Part shown: positions 1 to 25,302 of the stretch, one piece after another
Numbering within the stretch: position 1 is the first letter of the stretch
Layout: each line of letters opens with the position of its first letter
Assembly (NCBI GenBank): GCA_035538015.1
Contig: DATLLC010000279.1
Coordinates: 1 to 57,392 of the forward strand
Origin: Vicinamibacterales bacterium
GTDB lineage: Bacteria; Acidobacteriota; Vicinamibacteria; Vicinamibacterales; UBA2999
Direction: 5' to 3'
Length of the DNA stretch: 57,392 nucleotides
Made by a program: the position numbers and the translations under genes
Notes under the pieces: model-generated
What the model was told of the DNA's origin: nothing
The model's database searches: none
Seen by the model: only the letters and a program-made list of their open reading frames with translations

Positions 1-39
1 AGTAGTCCGGCTGGGGGTGCCGCTCACTTCAACCGTGAG

Positions 40-14488: not shown

Positions 14489-15229
14489 TCAGCGATCGCC
14501 GTACGCCTTCAGCATCACGTCTTCGCCTGGGGCCTGCAGCACGTAGTTCGCGGCGAACGCGTCCGCGTCCGGATAACGGGTGGCGCGGATGCGGTTCGCC
14601 GCGGCCTCGAGGTCGTAGTGCGTATGCATGAAGCGGGGGCCGCCGGCATCGAGCAGCAGCCAGTGCGCTCCCGGCGTGTCGAACGGCATGCCGACGCTCC
14701 CGGCATTGAGGACGCGGAAGGTGCCGACGTGGCGATCGAAGGTCATATGCGTGTGCCCGCAGACCACGACGGGAGCGGTGACGTCCGCAAACGCGGGAGC
14801 AATCCGAGTATCTGGCGTGAGCCGCGTAAAGACGTCCACGTCGTTCCGCGGCGTCGCGTGGCAGAAGAGAACCGCCCCCAGTCCCTCGACCTCGACCTGC
14901 AACGTTCTTGGCCATTGCCTGAGGCTCGCGATCTGATCGGTGCGCAGCTGCTCGGCGCCCCACTTGACCATCGGCTGGTAGGCCGGCGGCACCGTCGTCA
15001 TCTCGCGGCCGTCCGCCGCGGCAAGCGTTTCGCGATCACCGTTGCCGGTGAGATAGCGGACCGGTAGATCGAGCGCCGCCAGTAGGTCGAGCGTCTCGAC
15101 CGGCATCGGCCCGGGCAGCACGTCGCCGCCGACCACAATCAGATCGGCCGCAGCCTTACGGACCTCGCGCAGGACGGCTTCGAGGGCCGGCAGGTTGCCG
15201 TGGATGTCATACAGGGCGGCTAGCGTCAT
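14489..15229 (-). CDS. Metallophosphoesterase (calcineurin-like)
   Basis: The internal start MTLAALYDIHGN gives 246 aa. Motifs present: DIHGN, GGDVLPG, GNGD, CGHTH. ATG 15229 shares one nt with the TGA of the upstream DinB gene (TGATG), which suggests translational coupling. Confidence 0.85.
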   Translation of the reverse strand: MTLAALYDIHGNLPALEAVLREVRKAAADLIVVGGDVLPGPMPVETLDLLAALDLPVRYLTGNGDRETLAAADGREMTTVPPAYQPMVKWGAEQLRTDQIASLRQWPRTLQVEVEGLGAVLFCHATPRNDVDVFTRLTPDTRIAPAFADVTAPVVVCGHTHMTFDRHVGTFRVLNAGSVGMPFDTPGAHWLLLDAGGPRFMHTHYDLEAAANRIRATRYPDADAFAANYVLQAPGEDVMLKAYGDR

Positions 15230-15759
15230 CAATGATTCGACGGCCATGCCGCGTGTGGGCGGCCGAACCAAACCCAGGCGATGTAGTCCACCAGCGGCGG
15301 CGTGCCACCGACTTCGCGCAGACGCATGTTCACCTGTCCGCGGTGGTAAAGCGTGTGCAGCGCGACCTGGAGCATGGTATCGCCCATCGTGGTCATCGCC
15401 GGCGGGCGCCCGATCTCTTTTTCGACCATATCGACCCATGCGTGCGGCCGTGGCGCCGTCAGGGCATCCGGGCCCAACGTGGCCAGCTCCGGCGGCGCGT
15501 CCCGGTGGAACGCTCGAGCCCACGCCATGATCTCGCGGGGAGCGTCGAAGGTAGGGAACGGCGTGTCACGGGGCTCGCCGCGCCACATGCGCAGGAACAC
15601 GTGCTGCACCATGTGGGTGTGGTACAGCAACTCGCGCAGGCGCCCGTCCGCCGAAGCCCGTTCGTCAGCGAGCACGGCCGACCACACCGTGGCATCGGCC
15701 CACTCCATGTGCGGGTAGAGATCGGAGAGGATAGTCGCATCCATCACGGATGCGACCAT
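15229..15759 (-). CDS. DinB-family protein
   Basis: 176 aa. The sequence shows the DinB four-helix His triad: YPHMEWAD...LYHTHMVQHVF...LHTLYHRGQV. Confidence 0.8.
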   Translation of the reverse strand: MVASVMDATILSDLYPHMEWADATVWSAVLADERASADGRLRELLYHTHMVQHVFLRMWRGEPRDTPFPTFDAPREIMAWARAFHRDAPPELATLGPDALTAPRPHAWVDMVEKEIGRPPAMTTMGDTMLQVALHTLYHRGQVNMRLREVGGTPPLVDYIAWVWFGRPHAAWPSNH

Positions 15760-15774
15760 CCTACCGGACGGCGC

Positions 15775-16278
15775 TCACGCCTGGGCGAACGGATTCTCGT
15801 CGGCGCTCGGGCCGTAGACCGAGGGAATCGGCACGTTGAGCTGCCGCAAATAGACGACGAGCTGGCCGCGATGGTGGTACCAATGGTTCAGCATCACCGC
15901 GCGGAGGAAAGCCGCGCGCGGCATCGCCATCAGCTCGCGATTGCCGGCCACGAGGCGCCAGGTCTCCTGCATGGCGGCATCGCTGACGGGGGCGAGCGTC
16001 GATTTCGCCGTCTCGACGCTCGCGTGCAGCGCGGGCAGCAGATCCGCACTCCGCGCGGCCCGCTCCTGGACGAACTCCGGCGGCGTGGCCGGCGAGTGCA
16101 TCGCCAGCGTCGCGACGGCACCCGGGATCTGCGCCACATGCAGGGCCAGCTGGCCCAGGCTGTAGGACTTCGGATGCGGGCGCCAGTCCAGGTGCGCGTC
16201 GGGCACCCGCTCGAGCACGCGCCTGGTCGTCTGCGCTTCCTGCTCCAGCTCCTGGAGGAGTCCTTGAACAATAGGCAT
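15775..16278 (-). CDS. DinB-superfamily protein
   Basis: I chose the internal ATG at 16278 (MPIVQGLLQELEQEAQTTRRVLERVP..) because AGGAGA lies just upstream. The product is 167 aa with LALHVAQIPG...MLNHWYHHRGQLVVYLR. Confidence 0.8.
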   Translation of the reverse strand: MPIVQGLLQELEQEAQTTRRVLERVPDAHLDWRPHPKSYSLGQLALHVAQIPGAVATLAMHSPATPPEFVQERAARSADLLPALHASVETAKSTLAPVSDAAMQETWRLVAGNRELMAMPRAAFLRAVMLNHWYHHRGQLVVYLRQLNVPIPSVYGPSADENPFAQA

Positions 16279-16292
16279 GGTCGTTCTCCTTG

Positions 16293-16739
16293 CTACTTCT
16301 GCTCCGCGACGCGCTGGATTCGCGCGTGCAGCGCATGCCATCCATTGCCGAGGTTCTTGCGGACCTCGTCGGGCACGAAGCCCAGCGCGGAGTGACGGAA
16401 CGTGATCAGGGTGCCGCCCTCGACGGGCGTAAGTCGATACTGCAGGTTCGACATCACCGGGGCCGAGAGGAAGAGCGGCCCGCAGATCTCGAGCAGGCTC
16501 GGCCGCTTGATGGCCTGCACGACACCCCAGAAATGGCCGTCGTCGGCACCAAGGTCGCGGAACCAGCGCCCGCCCGGCCAGGGCTCGATACGCATCGGCA
16601 GCTTGTCGCCATAGGGCGTCTCGTTGTGCGGTCCCATTTCCTCCAGCAAGGTCTCGAAGGTCGTGTCGAGCGACGCGCCGACGCGAATCTCCTCGGTGAC
16701 GGTGAGCGTGAGCTGTTCGAGCGAGAGTTGATCGATCAT
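16293..16739 (-). CDS. SRPBCC / AHSA1-like (Activator of Hsp90 ATPase homolog 1-like) protein
   Basis: 148 aa starting MIDQLSLEQLTLTVTEEIRV. It has an ATGA overlap with the stop of the upstream ArsR gene (16736..16739). An ArsR gene followed by an AHSA1 gene is a classic pair. Confidence 0.8.
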   Translation of the reverse strand: MIDQLSLEQLTLTVTEEIRVGASLDTTFETLLEEMGPHNETPYGDKLPMRIEPWPGGRWFRDLGADDGHFWGVVQAIKRPSLLEICGPLFLSAPVMSNLQYRLTPVEGGTLITFRHSALGFVPDEVRKNLGNGWHALHARIQRVAEQK

Positions 16740-17068
16740 CGTGCCTCCGCGCGCGCTTTCACGCGCGATAGTTGGTGCCGCCACATCTGCTGGAACGTGC
16801 CCGTCCATTCGTGCACGGGCCGGATTGCCTCCGCGTTGGTGCGGTAGAGCACGCGCTTGCCGTCGCGGCGCGCCCGCACCAGCCCGACGTCGCTCAGCAC
16901 GCGCAAGTGCTTGGACACTGAGGGCTGCGCGCAGTCGAGCGCGTCGACCAGCTCGCCGACCGAGCGTTCGTCGGTCGCCAGCAGGGTCAGGATGGCGCGC
17001 CGCCGTGGTTCGGCAATGGCGTTGAACGTGTCGGACGTGGTTGCGGCACGGGCCACAAACGCGATCAT
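16736..17068 (-). CDS. ArsR/SmtB-family transcriptional regulator
   Basis: 110 aa with a winged HTH: FNAIAEPRRRAILTLLATDERSVGELVDALDCAQPSVSKHLRVLSDVGLV. The true start may be GTG 17056 (see the promoter feature). Confidence 0.9.
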   Translation of the reverse strand: MIAFVARAATTSDTFNAIAEPRRRAILTLLATDERSVGELVDALDCAQPSVSKHLRVLSDVGLVRARRDGKRVLYRTNAEAIRPVHEWTGTFQQMWRHQLSRVKARAEAR

Positions 17069-20951: not shown

Positions 20952-21665
20952 TCAGGCGCCTCGCTTCGCGCGAGCCGTAACCCGTCGTCGGACACCGGCA
21001 CTGCTCAGCTCACGCAACGCATCCTTTCCGACCCATGTCGCAGCCGCACTCCCGGACGCAGCCAGCCCCCCGGCAAGGTCCAGCGCAGCCGCGTGCAGGA
21101 CCGCATTCCGCTTGCCGGTCGCCCTGAGTGCCATGTTCACGGCCTTCTTGACGAAGTGCCTATCGTCATCGGCCGCCCGGCGAATCAGCTGGAGTCCCTC
21201 GAGGAACGGCGCGTCGCCGGCCTCCTTGTCGTGTACGGTCAGGCCCCAGAGGAGGGCGAATGCGGCGCGTTTCTCGTACTCCGCGTGGCGGCCGGCCCAG
21301 GCGGACACCTTGGCCCAGGCGTGCGGCGTGCGATCGAAAAGTGCGAAGCAGACCGTGTCGCACACGCCCCAATTGTCGAAGTCGCGGCACCATCGATCCA
21401 TCTGTGCCGCGGTCACCTGTCGTGGGTCGTCGACATACGCGGCCAGCAGGCGCGCTTCGTAGACGCCCGTCTTCCACAGACCAGCCGCCAGAGTATGGTC
21501 ACGGCCGATTTGCCGCGCCAGTGCCTGGATGTCCCTCATCGCGACGCCCAGCGCGCGATCCGAAATGATGGCGTAGCGCGCCATCGCGTCGAGCGTGGCC
21601 TTCCGCGCGTGACTCTTCAACCACCGCTGTGCTCCCGCGACATCCCATTGGTTCGCTCGACTCAT
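20952..21665 (-). CDS. DNA alkylation repair protein (AlkD-like HEAT-repeat family)
   Basis: The internal ATG at 21665 (MSRANQWDV..) gives 237 aa. The recognisable family core is YEARLLAAYVDDP...MDRWCRDFDNWGVCDTVCFALF...HAEYEKRAAFALL...DDRHFVKKAVNMALR. Confidence 0.8.
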   Translation of the reverse strand: MSRANQWDVAGAQRWLKSHARKATLDAMARYAIISDRALGVAMRDIQALARQIGRDHTLAAGLWKTGVYEARLLAAYVDDPRQVTAAQMDRWCRDFDNWGVCDTVCFALFDRTPHAWAKVSAWAGRHAEYEKRAAFALLWGLTVHDKEAGDAPFLEGLQLIRRAADDDRHFVKKAVNMALRATGKRNAVLHAAALDLAGGLAASGSAAATWVGKDALRELSSAGVRRRVTARAKRGA

Positions 21666-21700: not shown

Positions 21701-22384
21701 TCAGGTGAGCGACCAGAAAGGGCCGTCGAGTCCGCAGCGGCGGAACATCTGCTGCGTCTGTTCCACTCCGGCCCGCCGCCACCCTCGCTCCATGCGCGTC
21801 CTGTACCAGTCGCGCCCGAGATCGTACAGCGCCTGCGGCGACACCGCGGCTCCCCGCGTCAAGCCCTGCGCCGAAAGATAGTCCTGAAGCTCGCCCTCCG
21901 ACCGGAAGGCGCAGATGTTGGCTCAGGTGAAGGCGATGTCATCCCAGAAGCGCGCGGCTGGCACGAGGAAATGCGCCACGCCATCGCCGTTCACCACCCC
22001 GTTGGTCACGTCGAAGACGATGGACGCGCCCGTCGCCGGTGAGTGCATGTCGAGCCGCCCCGTGCCGCCGAACAAGCTCACGATCGCCAGGCCATCCCAG
22101 ACGCAGTTCCCGAACCATTGCCGACCGCCGATGGTGACGAGGGTGTCGGTCGGGACTGCCGAAAAGGGATGGGCCATGCGCACCGACTCGCCGTCGGGCT
22201 GCAGGACCAGGGCGTGCTCCTCGCCGAGGCGACGGAGCGCCGCCCCGACCTCAGCGTCGCTCGCGCCAAGCATGGCCGCGAGCTCGGCGACCGAAGGACT
22301 CCAGCCCTTCTCGCGGAAGCCGTGGTAGACGGCCGCTCGGACGTCACGCTCGAACTCGGTCACGCGCGTGTGACGGTTTGCCAA
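21701..22384 (-). CDS. MerB-like (alkylmercury lyase family) protein with an in-frame TGA at 21925..21923: candidate selenoprotein, otherwise truncated
   Basis: The ORF track gives 21923..22384 (153 aa, TTG start). The core NCVWDGLAIVSLFGGTGRLDMHSPATGASIVFDV aligns without gaps to MerB [34 protein letters not shown] (from memory). The same frame continues after the TGA for 74 codons (ANICAFRSEGELQDYLSAQGLTRGAAVSPQALYDLGRDWYRTRMERGWRRAGVEQTQQMFRRCGLDGPFWSLT) to TGA 21703..21701. Confidence 0.55.
21892..21911 (-). promoter_or_regulatory. SECIS-like hairpin 11 nt downstream of the in-frame UGA
   Basis: The mRNA reads CGCCUUCC-GGUC-GGAGGGCG, an 8-bp stem (one G.U pair) with a GGUC tetraloop. The loop occupies +23..+26 counted from the U of UGA. 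As I recall it, the E. coli fdhF SECIS has its GGUC loop at +22..+25. Confidence 0.45.
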
Positions 22385-22411: not shown

Positions 22412-22921
22412 TTACTTGACGACCACGCCGCACGCGATCCGGTCGCCGGCGTTGCCCGACGGGTCGGTCTTCATGTCGTCCGCCGCCGCGTGGACCACGA
22501 TGGCCGTGCCGCCGCCCGCGAATACGGAGTTGGCGTCGGCGCCCATACTGACGGTCTTGTTCGTGACCGATCCCTTGGCCATGCCATTGGCGGCGACCGT
22601 GAAGTTCGGCATGTCGCCGGCATGCGGCCCCTCGGGGTTCTGCGTGCCGTGCTTCTTGCCGGCGGGGTTGAAGTGCGGTCCGGCCGTGGCGAACGGCGGT
22701 TCGCACTTCGCCACCTGGTGGATGTGCAGGGCGTGCTCGCCGGGGGGCAATCCCTTGAAGTCGTAGGCCACGGTCACCCCCCCGCCGGAGGCCGGGGAGA
22801 GCATGACCATGCCGACTTCCTTGCCTTGTGCGTCCTTCAACGTGACGTGGGTCATCTGTGCGCTGAGGGTCAACGCGGAGGCAGCGAGGATGGTAACGAC
22901 GACCGTAACGGTTCGAGTCAT
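22412..22921 (-). CDS. sodC: Periplasmic Cu,Zn superoxide dismutase
   Basis: 169 aa with a signal peptide. Motifs present: HALHIHQVAKCE, GPHFNP, HAGDMPN, IVVHAAADD, GNAGDRIACGVV. AGGAG lies 4 nt upstream of the ATG. Confidence 0.9.
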   Translation of the reverse strand: MTRTVTVVVTILAASALTLSAQMTHVTLKDAQGKEVGMVMLSPASGGGVTVAYDFKGLPPGEHALHIHQVAKCEPPFATAGPHFNPAGKKHGTQNPEGPHAGDMPNFTVAANGMAKGSVTNKTVSMGADANSVFAGGGTAIVVHAAADDMKTDPSGNAGDRIACGVVVK

Positions 22922-23082
22922 GGCGCTCCTGTGGGTGAAAGGTGAGACAAGAGTAATCCGTGTCGCGCGACCGTCTCAAGCCCGGCACTCGACCGGCTCG
23001 TCCGGCCGGCCGTGGCTCGGCCCGGCGTTTAGGGACTGCAAGGAATCCTGCGCGCTCCGTTCTAGGGAGCGGAGGACGTCAG

Positions 23083-25302
23083 ATGCCGTTGGCCCGACTC
23101 GATCGCTGGCTCCGTGCCGACCCGCGGCACGGGCAGATTGCCACCCTCGCCGCGCTGCTCGGCTACGGCATGGTCTGGCTGGACTTCGACCTCACCATCT
23201 CCCAGGCCATTGTCACCATCGGCACGGCGCTCGGTGTCCAGGCGCTGGTTGACAGCTGCTCGGGCCGGCCACTCGTCCAGGGCGCAAAGAGCGCGCTCAT
23301 CTCGGCCCTCTCGCTTTGCCTGCTCCTGCGAACGGACCATCTCCTACTGGCCGGTGCCGCCGCAGGCGTCGCGGTCCTGTCGAAAGTCCTCATCCGGGTC
23401 CGCGACAAGCACGTCTTCAACCCCACCAATTTCGCGCTGATCGTCATGCTCGTAACGACCGACGCCGCCTGGGTATCGCCCGGGCAGTGGGGGACCAGCG
23501 CCCTGCTGGCGTTCGCATTTGCGTGCGCGGGACTGTTGGTCGTCCATCGGGCGACGCGGAGCGACGTGACGCTGGCGTTCCTCGCCTCCTACGCCAGCCT
23601 TGTCGTGGCGCGGTCCCTTTGGCTCGGCGAGCCGCTCGCCATCCCCCTGCACCGGCTCGAGAGCGGCGCATTCCTGCTCTTCGCCTTCTTCATGATTTCG
23701 GACCCCAGGACCACTCCGGACTCTCGAGCGGGGCGCGTGCTGTTCGCCACGGCGGTCGCACTCGGCGCCGCCTACGTCCAGTTCCGGCTGTTCCGGACCA
23801 ACGGCTTCCTGTGGTCCCTGGTGGTGCTCTCCCCTGTCGTGCCGTTCATCGACCGCTGGATGCCGGCGGCGCGCTATCACTGGCCCGGGGCACCAAGACC
23901 CGCCGGGCCTTCTCCCTGGAGGTCTGCGATGGTTCGACGCGTAGTGACGGGGCTGCTTGGATGGGTGGTCATCGTTTCGAGTGCGAGTGCGGCCGAGGCT
24001 TTCTGCGGATTCTACGTCGCCCGCGCCGATACCCGGCTGTTCAACAAGGCTTCGCAGGTGGTGCTGGTCCGCGACGGCGACCGGACGGTGCTGACCATGG
24101 CCAACGACTTCCGCGGCGACCCGCGCGAGTTCGCGATGGTGATCCCGGTGCCGACTCCCATCACCAGGGGCCAGATCAACGTGGGTGAGAAGGCGGTGCT
24201 GGACCACCTCGACGCGTTCACGGCGCCTCGGCTAGTCGAGTACTACGACGCCGATCCCTGTGTGGTCTTCGAACGCCGATTCCGCAGCGGGGCATCGATG
24301 TTAGCTGCTCCTCAGATGGAAATCGGGGATCGGAGCAGCGCGCGCAGCCTGGGCGTCACCATCGAAGCGCAGTACACCGTTGGGGAATACGACATCCTCA
24401 TCCTGTCGGCGACCCAGAGCTCGGGCCTGGAACAGTGGCTCCGGCAGAACGGATACCGCATTCCGCCCGGTGCATCGACCGTACTCGGCAGCTACATCAA
24501 GCAGAACATGCGCTTCTTCGTCGCGCGCGTGAACCTCGCCGAACAGTCGAAGCTGGGGTACGCCACGCTGCGCCCCCTGCAGGTGGCCTACGAATCGCCG
24601 AAGTTCATGCTGCCGATCCGCCTCGGGATGGTGAACGCCGATGGCCCGCAGGAGCTGTTCGTCTACGCGCTGACCCGCAAGGGCCGGGTCGAAGCGACGA
24701 ACTACCGCACCGTGAAGCTGCAGACCGACGTCGAGATTCCGGTCTACCTCAAGGACCCAGCCGAGTTCGGCCGCATGTACCGGGCGATGTTCGACCAGCA
24801 CGTGAAGCGGGAGCAGATGCGCGCCGTGTTCCAGGAGTACGCGTGGGACATGCGGTGGTGCGACCCATGCGCGGCGGATCCCCTGACCGCTGACGAACTG
24901 CGACGCCTCGGCGTGTTCTGGAGCGACGACGGCGAGCCTTCACAGCCGACGTGGCGCGGGCCCTCGGCCTCGCCCCAGGAGGTCTTCGTCACACGCCTCC
25001 ATGTGCGTTACGACGAGGCGCACTTTCCCGAGGACCTCGTGTTCCAGGAGACGGGCGACCGCGCCAACTTCCAGGGACGGTACGTGCTGCGCCACGCCTG
25101 GAAGGGACCGATGCGGTGCCAGGCGGGCACCGCATACGTTCGGGAGCTGCCTGCGCGTCGTGAGCGGGAGGCCCAGGCGCTGGTCGCGCTCACCGGTTGG
25201 TCGATCGACGATGTCCGCCGCCGGATGACCGACAACGGCATGGCGCCTCTGCCGGCCGATCCGGCCTTGCCGTGGTGGCGCCGACTGTGGGGCGGCTGGT
25301 AG
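23083..25302 (+). CDS. Fusion ORF: RnfD/NqrB-like polytopic membrane domain + DUF2330 domain
   Basis: I chose ATG 23083 because GGAGG lies 7 nt upstream. The N-terminal ~280 aa are multi-TM, with FNPTNFALIVMLV and FFMISDPRTTP (NQR2/RnfD/RnfE-family hallmarks). From MVRRVVTGLLGWVVIVSSASAAEA-FCGFYVA onward it is DUF2330-like (VVLVRDGDRTVLTMANDF, FAMVIPVP, WCDPCA). No stop separates the two parts. An internal GGAGG (23918..23922) plus ATG 23929 could also give a separate secreted DUF2330 product. Confidence 0.7.
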   Translation: MPLARLDRWLRADPRHGQIATLAALLGYGMVWLDFDLTISQAIVTIGTALGVQALVDSCSGRPLVQGAKSALISALSLCLLLRTDHLLLAGAAAGVAVLSKVLIRVRDKHVFNPTNFALIVMLVTTDAAWVSPGQWGTSALLAFAFACAGLLVVHRATRSDVTLAFLASYASLVVARSLWLGEPLAIPLHRLESGAFLLFAFFMISDPRTTPDSRAGRVLFATAVALGAAYVQFRLFRTNGFLWSLVVLSPVVPFIDRWMPAARYHWPGAPRPAGPSPWRSAMVRRVVTGLLGWVVIVSSASAAEAFCGFYVARADTRLFNKASQVVLVRDGDRTVLTMANDFRGDPREFAMVIPVPTPITRGQINVGEKAVLDHLDAFTAPRLVEYYDADPCVVFERRFRSGASMLAAPQMEIGDRSSARSLGVTIEAQYTVGEYDILILSATQSSGLEQWLRQNGYRIPPGASTVLGSYIKQNMRFFVARVNLAEQSKLGYATLRPLQVAYESPKFMLPIRLGMVNADGPQELFVYALTRKGRVEATNYRTVKLQTDVEIPVYLKDPAEFGRMYRAMFDQHVKREQMRAVFQEYAWDMRWCDPCAADPLTADELRRLGVFWSDDGEPSQPTWRGPSASPQEVFVTRLHVRYDEAHFPEDLVFQETGDRANFQGRYVLRHAWKGPMRCQAGTAYVRELPARREREAQALVALTGWSIDDVRRRMTDNGMAPLPADPALPWWRRLWGGW

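What the first reader, a model, noticed from the sequence alone, without database searches (positions are those of the whole stretch)
21701..22384. Candidate selenocysteine in a MerB-like (organomercurial lyase family) protein, at the position of the catalytic Cys159/Cys160 pair
Seen in the sequence:
- The minus-strand ORF ends at TGA (21925..21923).
- The same frame stays open for 74 more codons, to TGA 21703..21701.
- Those codons translate to protein-like sequence: ANICAFRSEGELQDYLSAQGLTRGAAVSPQALYDLGRDWYRTRMERGWRRAGVEQTQQMFRRCGLDGPFWSLT.
- Read-through removes an otherwise unexplained 257-nt gap and leaves 35 nt to the next start at 21665.
- Eleven nt after the UGA, the mRNA folds into CGCCUUCC-GGUC-GGAGGGCG (21911..21892). 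Its GGUC loop is at +23..+26.

Established knowledge: MerB catalysis uses Cys96, Asp99 and Cys159, and Cys160 is adjacent to Cys159. Bacterial SECIS elements are hairpins directly 3' of the UGA. In E. coli fdhF, the loop GGUC (G23/U24) is the SelB contact.

Inference, using an alignment done from my memory of R831b MerB: NCVWD matches WCALD, so the Cys96 and Asp99 equivalents are kept. AFT-U-ANICAFRS matches SFC-C-HVHFFAS, which puts the UGA in the Cys159/Cys160 dipeptide. A Cys-to-Sec swap at a metal-binding catalytic thiol is the classic signature of a genuine selenoprotein. I do not know this family as an established selenoprotein family.
Basis: partly seen in the sequence, partly recalled or inferred. 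Interest (0 to 1): 0.8.

Follow-up and report, generated by a model that had tools for sequence, protein, structure and literature searches.

The report
Selenocysteine-containing MerB-like lyase gene
The "stop" codon in the middle of this mercury-lyase-like gene is almost certainly read as selenocysteine, placing selenium at the enzyme's metal-binding catalytic site, and the same hidden recoding occurs in a large group of soil and sediment bacteria whose genes public databases list as truncated.

Summary
The minus-strand ORF ends at TGA 21925..21923. The frame stays open for 73 more codons, and Pfam MerB (PF03243) aligns straight across the TGA.

The TGA falls on MerB catalytic Cys159. The Cys96 and Asp99 equivalents (C94, D97) are kept.

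In 79 species-representative genomes from at least 7 phyla:
- 76 have TGA at this codon and 3 have TGC.
- All continue with a conserved C-terminus (FRSE…WY..R…GL.G.FW).
- Synonymous changes outnumber non-synonymous ones about 2:1 downstream of the TGA.

Eleven nt after the UGA lies a hairpin with a GGUC loop. The loop sequence and spacing match E. coli fdhF.
- The lower stem covaries.
- The loop codons are frozen (Arg CGG 97%, Ser TCG 99%).
- The Cys-form genes lack the hairpin.

One related contig also carries an FdhA gene with TGA at the canonical Sec position.

A MerB-like selenoprotein, SaoL, is already known (CU motif, anaerobes). This clade fails the SaoL and MerB NCBIfam cut-offs, has a TU motif and has no conserved gene neighbourhood. 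I found it described nowhere in the literature I could search.

Verdict: a real selenoprotein gene and a new member of a known kind. The source genome's Sec machinery could not be tested.

The parts
21701..22384 (-). Full recoded MerB-like gene. It is 227 codons from TTG 22384, or about 220 from the likelier GTG 22363, with one internal UGA and a terminal TGA at 21703..21701.
   Evidence: Pfam MerB scores 66 bits and spans the UGA. GC3 is 0.86 on both sides of the UGA.
22361..22363 (-). Probable true start codon, GTG. Homologs begin MTEFERDV.
   Evidence: This rests on the alignment of homolog N-termini and was not otherwise tested.
22103..22105 (-). TGC encoding Cys94, the equivalent of MerB Cys96 (the first metal-ligand thiol).
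   Evidence: (invariant column): TGC/TGT in 72 of the 76 loci where the motif search matched, TGA in the other 4.
22094..22096 (-). GAT encoding Asp97, the equivalent of MerB Asp99 (the proton donor).
   Evidence: invariant D97.
21923..21925 (-). In-frame UGA, read as selenocysteine 154. It aligns with MerB catalytic Cys159.
   Evidence: alignment to 3F2G/3FN8; TGA in 76 of 79 loci, TGC in 3; four independent assemblies.
21892..21911 (-). SECIS-type hairpin. The 5' arm is 21911..21904, the GGUC loop is 21903..21900 and the 3' arm is 21899..21892. It begins 11 nt after the UGA.
   Evidence: covariation; frozen CGG/UCG codons; absent from Cys forms; E. coli fdhF loop GGUC at +22..25.
21704..21922 (-). 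The 73 codons translated only after recoding. They form the C-terminal third of the MerB fold, with motifs FRSE, WY..R and GL.G.FW.
   Evidence: Mean identity to homologs is 42% downstream versus 47% upstream. The syn:nonsyn ratio is 2.16 downstream versus 2.87 upstream.
20952..21665 (-). Next gene on the same strand: a DNA-alkylation-repair (PF08713) protein starting at ATG 21665, 35 nt after the recoded gene's stop.
   Evidence: The longer 276-aa call from GTG 21782 would overlap the recoded C-terminus.
22412..22921 (-). Upstream gene on the same strand: a Cu/Zn superoxide dismutase (Sod_Cu). This is context only.

Best explanation
This is a selenoprotein gene. During translation of the minus-strand mRNA, UGA 21925..21923 is not a stop. 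A hairpin 11 nt downstream has 8 bp and an apical GGUC loop. It acts as a bacterial SECIS element that recruits SelB-GTP-Sec-tRNA(Sec) to the ribosome, so selenocysteine is inserted at residue 154 and translation runs on for 73 more codons.

The product is a protein of about 220 aa in the MerB (alkylmercury lyase, PF03243) superfamily. Its presumed active site is Cys94 / Asp97 / Sec154, where MerB has Cys96 / Asp99 / Cys159.

By analogy with MerB, Cys94 and Sec154 would bind the metal of an organometallic substrate, and Asp97 would protonate the carbon that leaves. This is inferred, not shown. Selenium would give a softer and more nucleophilic ligand. Without selenium or SelB, only a truncated fragment of about 146 aa lacking that ligand would be made.

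Shown here: the recoding signature (conserved UGA, Cys homologs, translated downstream frame, conserved SECIS). Inferred: the enzymatic reaction and its substrate.
For: - Pfam MerB aligns across the UGA. The UGA aligns with Cys159 of crystallised MerB, and C94/D97 align with Cys96/Asp99.
- More than 100 database homologs are annotated as 145-146 aa, all ending ...FWDDIGFT.
- The two 'full-length' homologs carry W at that residue; in the one whose DNA could be retrieved it is a TGA called under genetic code 4.
- In 79 GTDB species-representative loci from Acidobacteriota, NC10/Methylomirabilota, Chloroflexota, Acidimicrobiia, Gemmatimonadota, Marinimicrobia and Desulfobacterales, the codon is TGA in 76 and TGC in 3. 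A conserved ORF of about 55-80 codons follows in every case.
- More distant full-length relatives have Cys there.
- The downstream frame is under purifying selection. The ratio of synonymous to non-synonymous single-base differences is 2.16, against 2.87 upstream and roughly 0.3 expected if untranslated (my estimate, not computed).
- Hairpin: 85.5% of cells pair, versus 44-60% when the partners are slid. Five of 8 pairs show double changes. The covariation score is 0.295 versus 0.17, and 0 of 500 shuffles reach it.
- Arg+7 is CGG in 71 of 73 and Ser+8 is UCG in 70 of 71. Other conserved six-fold-degenerate sites use their top codon only 36-46% of the time.
- The three Cys-form genes lack the hairpin.
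- The alignment of 76 sequences has no indel between the UGA and the hairpin.
- Genuine E. coli fdhF has the same GGUC loop at +22..25, against +23..26 here.
- Contig L040 carries both a member of this family and an FdhA with TGA exactly at the FdhF Sec140 column, followed by a GGUCU-loop hairpin at +22.
- The TGA is reproduced in 4 independent assemblies.
Against: - No selA, selB, selD or tRNA-Sec was found in the 57-kb window or in the 20-kb flanks of related loci. This is uninformative rather than negative, but it leaves the source genome's Sec trait unverified.
- No Rfam SECIS model matches.
- The single-sequence fold energy is ordinary.
- FRSE is also conserved at the protein level in Cys forms, so part of the nucleotide conservation in the hairpin is due to protein constraint.
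- No mer operon or any conserved neighbourhood supports an organomercurial role.
- The AlphaFold model is poor around the site, so the active-site geometry rests on sequence alignment only.
Confidence: 0.88

Rival explanations
1. The TGA is a genuine stop. The family is a 146-aa truncated MerB-like protein, and the downstream 73 codons are a decaying remnant or a separately translated small ORF (gene fission).
For: Gene callers and GenBank annotate it this way, for example HEX5531112.1 at 145 aa. Many orphan ORFs of about 70 aa matching the C-terminal part exist in protein databases.
Against: - A remnant would not stay open and conserved in 79 of 79 loci across several phyla, nor show a syn:nonsyn ratio of 2.16.
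- The window has no start codon near the TGA. The first is TTG at +21 codons, which would cut off the conserved FRSE motif.
- The truncated product would lack the Cys159-equivalent ligand.
- Cys-form homologs are single full-length proteins.
Confidence: 0.04
2. The UGA is read through or reassigned to a standard amino acid (Trp, Gly or Cys) rather than to selenocysteine. This could be by an alternative genetic code or by near-cognate suppression stimulated by the hairpin.
For: Some pipelines translated it as W under code 4. The Sec machinery of the source genome was not seen.
Against: - The gene itself ends with TGA, as do many neighbouring genes.
- The host phyla use the standard code.
- The column is Cys in homologs, the classic Sec/Cys pair.
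- The loop sequence and its distance from the UGA match the SelB-binding element of E. coli fdhF.
- A canonical Sec-FdhA sits on the same contig in L040.
Confidence: 0.05
3. A sequencing or assembly error turned TGC/TGT into TGA, so this is an ordinary Cys protein.
For: None beyond the one-base distance between TGC and TGA.
Against: The same TGA is found in four independent soil metagenome assemblies, three of which were checked and differ from the window by 6-13 SNPs elsewhere. It is also found in 76 other genomes.
Confidence: 0.01

Closest known systems
SaoL, the MerB-like organometallic lyase selenoprotein (NCBIfam NF040728; Haft & Gwadz 2022, bioRxiv 10.1101/2022.07.06.499078)
   Same: - It belongs to the PF03243 superfamily.
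[quoted passage not shown]
- Its Sec aligns with MerB Cys159, and the Cys96 and Asp99 equivalents are kept.
- It is routinely truncated in databases.
   Different: - The window protein scores 24 bits and ten diverse clade members score at most 38 bits against NF040728, whose cut-off is 140.
- The motif is T-U, not C-U.
- There is no nine-gene SAO locus and no conserved neighbourhood at all.
- The hosts are mainly Acidobacteriota, NC10, Chloroflexota, Acidimicrobiia and Gemmatimonadota from soil and sediment. SaoL hosts are strict anaerobes such as Clostridioides, Syntrophobacter and Brachyspira.
MerB organomercurial lyase of plasmid R831b (PDB 1S6L, 3F0O/3F0P, 3F2G)
   Same: Same domain and overall length. 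The Cys96-x-x-Asp99 motif is kept as C94-V-W-D97, and the third catalytic position is the recoded codon. The only PDB fold matches with E <= 0.001 are MerB and MerB2.
   Different: - Scores are 30 and 22 bits against the MerB equivalog models, whose cut-offs are 193 and 200.
- Sec replaces Cys159, and Ala replaces Cys160.
- No merA, merR, merT or merP is nearby.
- The substrate is unknown.
E. coli fdhF SECIS element
   Same: The hairpin starts 11 nt after the UGA. The apical tetraloop is GGUC, at +22..25 in fdhF and +23..26 here, read from the real sequences. G23 and U24 as SelB contacts and the 11-nt spacing rule are from my own knowledge of the E. coli literature (Huttenhofer 1996; Liu 1998). 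I did not find them in the library I could search.
   Different: The stem here is a perfect 8-bp helix without the bulged U17. Recognition by the host's SelB is untested.
Cys-containing members of the same clade (L069 uncultured bacterium, L074 Actinoallomurus acaciae, L081 Microbacterium sp.; proteins P0128, P0234, P0239, P0242)
   Same: Same architecture and motifs (...T-C-x-x-x-x-F-R/C-S...WY..R...FW). They share up to 51% identity with Sec forms.
   Different: They have TGC instead of TGA, no hairpin, and relaxed codon choice at the loop positions (CGC and UCU in L069).

Membership tests
Pfam PF03243 (MerB / alkylmercury lyase superfamily) | Domain match above the gathering score over the whole domain | tested here: met
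   66.1 bits against a cut-off of 27. Residues 74-194 match model positions 1-125 of 126, across the UGA.
MerB sensu stricto (NCBIfam NF009710 / NF033555) | Score above the curated equivalog cut-off | tested here: not met
   30.4 bits against 193, and 22.2 bits against 200. Ten other clade members score at most 56 bits.
MerB sensu stricto (NCBIfam NF009710 / NF033555) | Catalytic Cys96 / Asp99 / Cys159 triad | tested here: met
   C94 and D97 are invariant, and UGA154 falls on the Cys159 column. The third member is Sec or Cys, not Cys only.
MerB sensu stricto (NCBIfam NF009710 / NF033555) | Location in a mer operon (merR/T/P/A) | tested here: not met
   No mer-family domains were found among 31 window ORFs with Pfam results (29 scanned here, 2 from precomputed annotations; 2 had no hit). 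No neighbour is shared by more than 14 of 80 loci.
MerB sensu stricto (NCBIfam NF009710 / NF033555) | Protonolysis of C-Hg bonds | not testable with these tools
   This needs an enzyme assay.
SaoL (NF040728) | Score above the curated cut-off (140 bits) | tested here: not met
   24 bits for the window protein. Seven of ten other members score 18-38 bits and three show no hit.
SaoL (NF040728) | Cys-Sec (CU) dipeptide | tested here: not met
   The residue before U is Thr in 76 of 76 Sec forms.
SaoL (NF040728) | Embedded in the nine-gene SAO locus | tested here: not met
   Clustering of neighbours across 80 loci finds no conserved locus. Representative neighbours are histidine kinases, response regulators, an aldehyde dehydrogenase and GNAT acetyltransferases.
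SaoL (NF040728) | Sec at the MerB Cys159 column | tested here: met
   for this protein. The SaoL side is taken from the paper.
Bacterial selenoprotein gene | In-frame UGA conserved among orthologs, with Cys in the same column in other homologs | tested here: met
   76 TGA and 3 TGC among 79 loci. Cys is present in distant full-length relatives.
Bacterial selenoprotein gene | The frame downstream of the UGA is translated (protein-level conservation) | tested here: met
   Pfam coverage. Identity to homologs is 42% downstream against 47% upstream. The syn:nonsyn ratio is 2.16.
Bacterial selenoprotein gene | SECIS hairpin immediately 3' of the UGA with conserved G/U in the apical loop | tested here: met
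   Fixed 11-nt spacer and GGUC loop at least 90% conserved. Covariation, synonymous constraint and absence from Cys forms support it. There is no Rfam model hit.
Bacterial selenoprotein gene | selA, selB, selC and selD present in the same genome | not testable with these tools
   None is present in the window or the held flanks. The SelB-like hit in L082 is IF-2. Indirect support comes from a Sec-type FdhA on the same contig as a family member in L040.
Bacterial selenoprotein gene | Selenium incorporated in the protein | not testable with these tools
   This needs 75Se labelling or mass spectrometry.

The most novel reading that the evidence does not exclude
This is the founding example of an undescribed clade of stand-alone MerB-superfamily selenoenzymes. 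The clade is phylogenetically broad (at least 7 phyla, more than 500 protein clusters), carries a T-U motif, and is distinct from both MerB and SaoL. It has been hidden because every pipeline truncates it at the UGA.

One sublineage has replaced both metal-ligand cysteines by selenocysteine.

If the enzymes cleave carbon-metal bonds, they could be an unrecognised route of methylmercury or other organometal degradation in ordinary soils and sediments, linked to selenium availability.
Probability: 0.45. Interest if true: 0.72.

Novelty: new member of a known kind. Interest (0 to 1): 0.6.

Why it matters
Annotation. Hundreds of database entries for this family are truncated at about 145 aa and lack a catalytic residue, for example GenBank HEX5531112.1. 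Others are mistranslated with Trp. Correcting them needs a family model that spans the UGA.

Selenoproteome. The clade adds a widespread selenoprotein to lineages that dominate soils (Vicinamibacterales, NC10, Acidimicrobiia, Gemmatimonadota, Chloroflexota). It gives a second and probably independent case of Sec at the MerB Cys159 position. That strengthens the idea that selenium is selected at carbon-metal-cleaving sites.

Mercury and selenium. Mercury-selenium antagonism and soil methylmercury turnover are active questions. A Sec-dependent MerB-like enzyme outside mer operons gives a concrete gene to test.

The double-Sec variants offer a natural series of Cys/Cys, Cys/Sec and Sec/Sec active sites.

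Tried and rejected
- Rfam at gathering score over the whole window, and at E <= 10 over 21800..22000, gave no SECIS family. The only hit was a chance flavivirus stem-loop on the other strand.
- Single-sequence folding has z = -1.0, so it is not evidence on its own.
- tRNA-Sec and SelA/SelB/SelD searches of the window and about 1.3 Mb of related loci found nothing. The one SelB-like hit, in L082, is IF-2.
- A protein search with the 98-aa segment around the U returned nothing useful and spent one search.
- AlphaFold2 on P0091, which has W at the Sec position and a shallow C-terminal alignment, gave pLDDT 72 overall and below 50 around residues 127-152. I used only the fold-level match to MerB and MerB2, not the geometry.
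- A scan of the window for other UGA-plus-hairpin sites gave 6 further candidates. None has coding character on both sides.
- Two same-frame ORFs separated by TGA at 15229..16341 (-) are tandem DinB-like paralogs by sequence inspection, each with its own start. They are not a selenoprotein.
- No conserved gene neighbourhood was found.
- I looked for a paper describing this clade. Reviews up to 2026, the deep-Sep paper and the BSepDB paper do not mention it, and only SaoL appears.

Full report
**1. The observation**

- The minus-strand ORF starting at TTG 22384 is followed by TGA 21925..21923.
- The same frame then runs 73 sense codons (ANICAFRSEGELQDYL...GLDGPFWSLT) to TGA 21703..21701.
- The hairpin CGCCUUCC-GGUC-GGAGGGCG occupies 21911..21892. 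It starts 11 nt after the UGA.
- With read-through, the distance to the next plausible start (ATG 21665, a PF08713 DNA-alkylation-repair gene) falls from 257 nt to 35 nt.
- GC3 is 0.86 on both sides of the UGA, which is the value of real genes in this window.

On its own the hairpin is not statistically unusual in this GC-rich DNA: z = -1.0, and Rfam finds nothing. The case therefore rests on comparison with other sequences.

**2. What the protein is**

With the UGA read as a residue, Pfam MerB (PF03243) matches residues 74-194 to model positions 1-125 of 126, at 66 bits against a cut-off of 27. The 73 'extra' codons are therefore the missing C-terminal third of the domain.

HMMER alignment to crystallised MerB (3F2G, 3FN8, 1S6L) puts:
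- NCVWD on WCALD, so C94 corresponds to Cys96 and D97 to Asp99;
- the UGA on the first Cys of SFCC, which is Cys159.

A low-confidence AlphaFold model of a homolog finds only MerB and MerB2 in the PDB at E <= 0.001. It is too poor around the site to say anything about geometry.

**3. Comparative evidence for recoding**

*Annotated homologs.* A protein search returned 527 relatives. Nearly all of the best 120 are 145-146 aa and end at ...FWDDIGFT. The only two 'full-length' ones have W at the next position. For one of them the DNA is available and the W is a TGA that a pipeline translated with genetic code 4; the DNA for the other could not be retrieved.

*Genomic loci.* A scan of one genome per GTDB species gave 80 loci from Acidobacteriota (Vicinamibacterales, Thermoanaerobaculia), NC10/Methylomirabilota, Chloroflexota, Acidimicrobiia, Gemmatimonadota, Marinimicrobia, Desulfobacterales and others.
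- Of the 79 that reach the site, 76 have TGA and 3 have TGC (an uncultured bacterium, Actinoallomurus acaciae and a Microbacterium).
- In all of them the frame continues for about 55-80 codons, with shared motifs x-N/T-I-x-x-F-R-S-E ... W-Y-x-x-R ... G-L-x-G-x-F-W.
- More distant full-length relatives have Cys in the same column.

*Selection on the downstream frame.*
- Identity to the window protein averages 47% upstream and 42% downstream of the UGA.
- Among 210 moderately diverged pairs, synonymous single-base codon differences outnumber non-synonymous ones 2.87:1 upstream and 2.16:1 downstream.
- The downstream frame is therefore under protein-level purifying selection.

*Error excluded.* The same TGA occurs in four independent soil metagenome assemblies; the three checked differ from the window by 6-13 SNPs elsewhere, one of them a G-C to G-U change inside the hairpin. 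That excludes a sequencing error.

**4. The SECIS element**

The first 48 nt from the UGA align without a single gap in 76 genes, so the 11-nt spacer is fixed. The loop GGUC is at least 90% conserved.

*Covariation.*
- For the 8-bp helix, 85.5% of cells pair. Only 44-60% pair when the 3' partners are slid by 1-3 columns.
- Five of 8 pairs show changes on both sides. For example, pair 17-32 is C-G in 31 sequences, U-A in 21 and G-C in 6.
- The covariation score is 0.295 against 0.17, and 0 of 500 shuffles reach it.

*Synonymous constraint.* Selection is visible at synonymous sites, so it acts on the RNA.
- Arg at +7 is CGG in 71 of 73 genes.
- Ser at +8 is UCG in 70 of 71 genes.
- Other equally conserved six-fold-degenerate residues in the gene use their top codon only 36-46% of the time.

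*Cys forms.* The three Cys-form genes use other codons (CGC and UCU in L069) and form no hairpin there.

*Comparison with E. coli fdhF.* I read the real fdhF sequence. It has UGA at codon 140 and a GGUC loop at +22..25. The window has GGUC at +23..26, and the helix starts at +15 in both. The statements that G23 and U24 contact SelB, and that a minimal SECIS must sit 11 nt from the UGA, come from my own knowledge of the E. coli literature. I could not find them in the held library.

**5. Sec machinery**

The window has no tRNA at all and no SelA, SelB or SelD homolog. The flanks of the related loci have none either. A SelB-like hit in L082 is IF-2.

One indirect test succeeded. Contig L040 (Acidimicrobiia UBA4744) carries a member of this family. 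About 4.5 kb away it carries an FdhA homolog that is 38% identical to E. coli FdhF over 633 aa, with TGA exactly at the Sec140 column (CNRT-TGA-HAPSVAGL). That TGA is followed by the hairpin GUCGCC-GGUCU-GGCGGC, with its loop at +22. That genome therefore decodes Sec, and it uses the same loop motif in both genes.

**6. Context and function**

No mer genes are present in the window. The neighbours are a Cu/Zn SOD, a DNA-alkylation-repair protein, a GNAT acetyltransferase and an ArsR-AHSA1 protein. Further out lie peptidases, amidohydrolases, a PQQ dehydrogenase and others.

Across 80 loci, no neighbouring gene is shared by more than 14. The gene is a stand-alone unit.

The mechanism I propose is organometal protonolysis, with Cys94 and Sec154 as metal ligands and Asp97 as proton donor. 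This is by analogy with MerB and is inference only.

**7. Comparison with what is known**

A MerB-like selenoprotein is already known. SaoL (NF040728) has a C-U motif, sits in a nine-gene SAO locus and occurs in strict anaerobes (Haft & Gwadz 2022). It is the only MerB-like entry in the 2022 and 2026 selenoproteome inventories (PMC9312934, PMC13188914).

The present clade is not SaoL:
- Scores against NF040728 are 24 bits for the window protein and at most 38 bits for ten diverse members. The cut-off is 140.
- The motif is T-U.
- There is no SAO locus.

It also fails the MerB equivalog models, with at most 56 bits against cut-offs of 193 and 200. I found no paper describing it. GenBank still annotates members as truncated, for example HEX5531112.1, a 145-aa 'organomercurial lyase'.

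**8. Verdict**

This is a selenocysteine codon at the Cys159-equivalent catalytic position of a MerB-superfamily protein, served by an fdhF-like SECIS hairpin.

It is a new member of a known kind (MerB-like selenoproteins). It represents a large, mis-annotated clade that, as far as I could search, has not been described.

What remains unproven is the Sec machinery of the source organism, actual selenium incorporation, and the substrate.

Noticed in passing
L059 (about 10240 and 10430), L080, L083 and L085. These are related loci, not the window.: Four members have TGA at both catalytic-Cys columns. They come from Anaerolineales, Desulfobacterales, a 'delta proteobacterium' MAG and Anaerolineae. 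The sites read ..YWGN-TGA-VWD.. (the Cys96 equivalent) and ..GYT-TGA-ATIL.. (the Cys159 equivalent). Each first TGA is followed by a predicted hairpin, for example GGCAUUGCUGCC-AUUCUG-GGCAGCGAUGC in L059. These are possible double-Sec MerB-like enzymes. The same subclade, including L070, also carries an extra P-C-G-C-G-E/D/V-C motif.
   Followed up: partly
L040:15224-15226 (FdhA-like gene, about 14963..16879): A formate-dehydrogenase-alpha homolog has TGA exactly at the E. coli FdhF Sec140 column, followed by a GGUCU-loop hairpin at +22. It lies on the same contig as a MerB-like TGA gene. This shows that this genome uses selenocysteine.
   Followed up: yes
window 21701..21782: The downstream DNA-alkylation-repair gene is called as 276 aa from GTG 21782, both in public metagenome annotation and by the ORF list. 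That start would overlap the recoded C-terminus by 82 nt in another frame. ATG 21665 (237 aa, with the Pfam domain starting at residue 14) fits better.
   Followed up: partly
Proteins P0002, P0091 and P0223; GenBank HEX5531112.1: Public annotation of this family is inconsistent. Most entries are truncated at 145-146 aa. Some have Trp at the Sec position because the contig was called with genetic code 4. Many orphan 'proteins' of about 70 aa are the C-terminal fragment.
   Followed up: yes
window 21892..21911 and alignment A2, columns 15-18 and 31-34: The lower stem of the hairpin pairs the codon before Phe+6 with the codons after Glu+9. The amino acids at these positions (Ala/Leu/Gly versus Gly/Glu/Ala) therefore co-vary for RNA reasons rather than protein reasons.
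   Followed up: partly
window 15229..16341 (-): Two DinB-like ORFs of 188 and 176 aa lie in the same frame, separated by TGA and a few codons. They look like tandem paralogs with their own starts, not a recoded gene.
   Followed up: partly
window 22960..25302 (+): A 780-aa ORF combines an NQR2/RnfD/RnfE-like membrane domain (residues 174-303) with a DUF2330 domain (residues 343-694). It is transcribed divergently from the SOD / MerB-like gene cluster. Its function is unknown.
   Followed up: no
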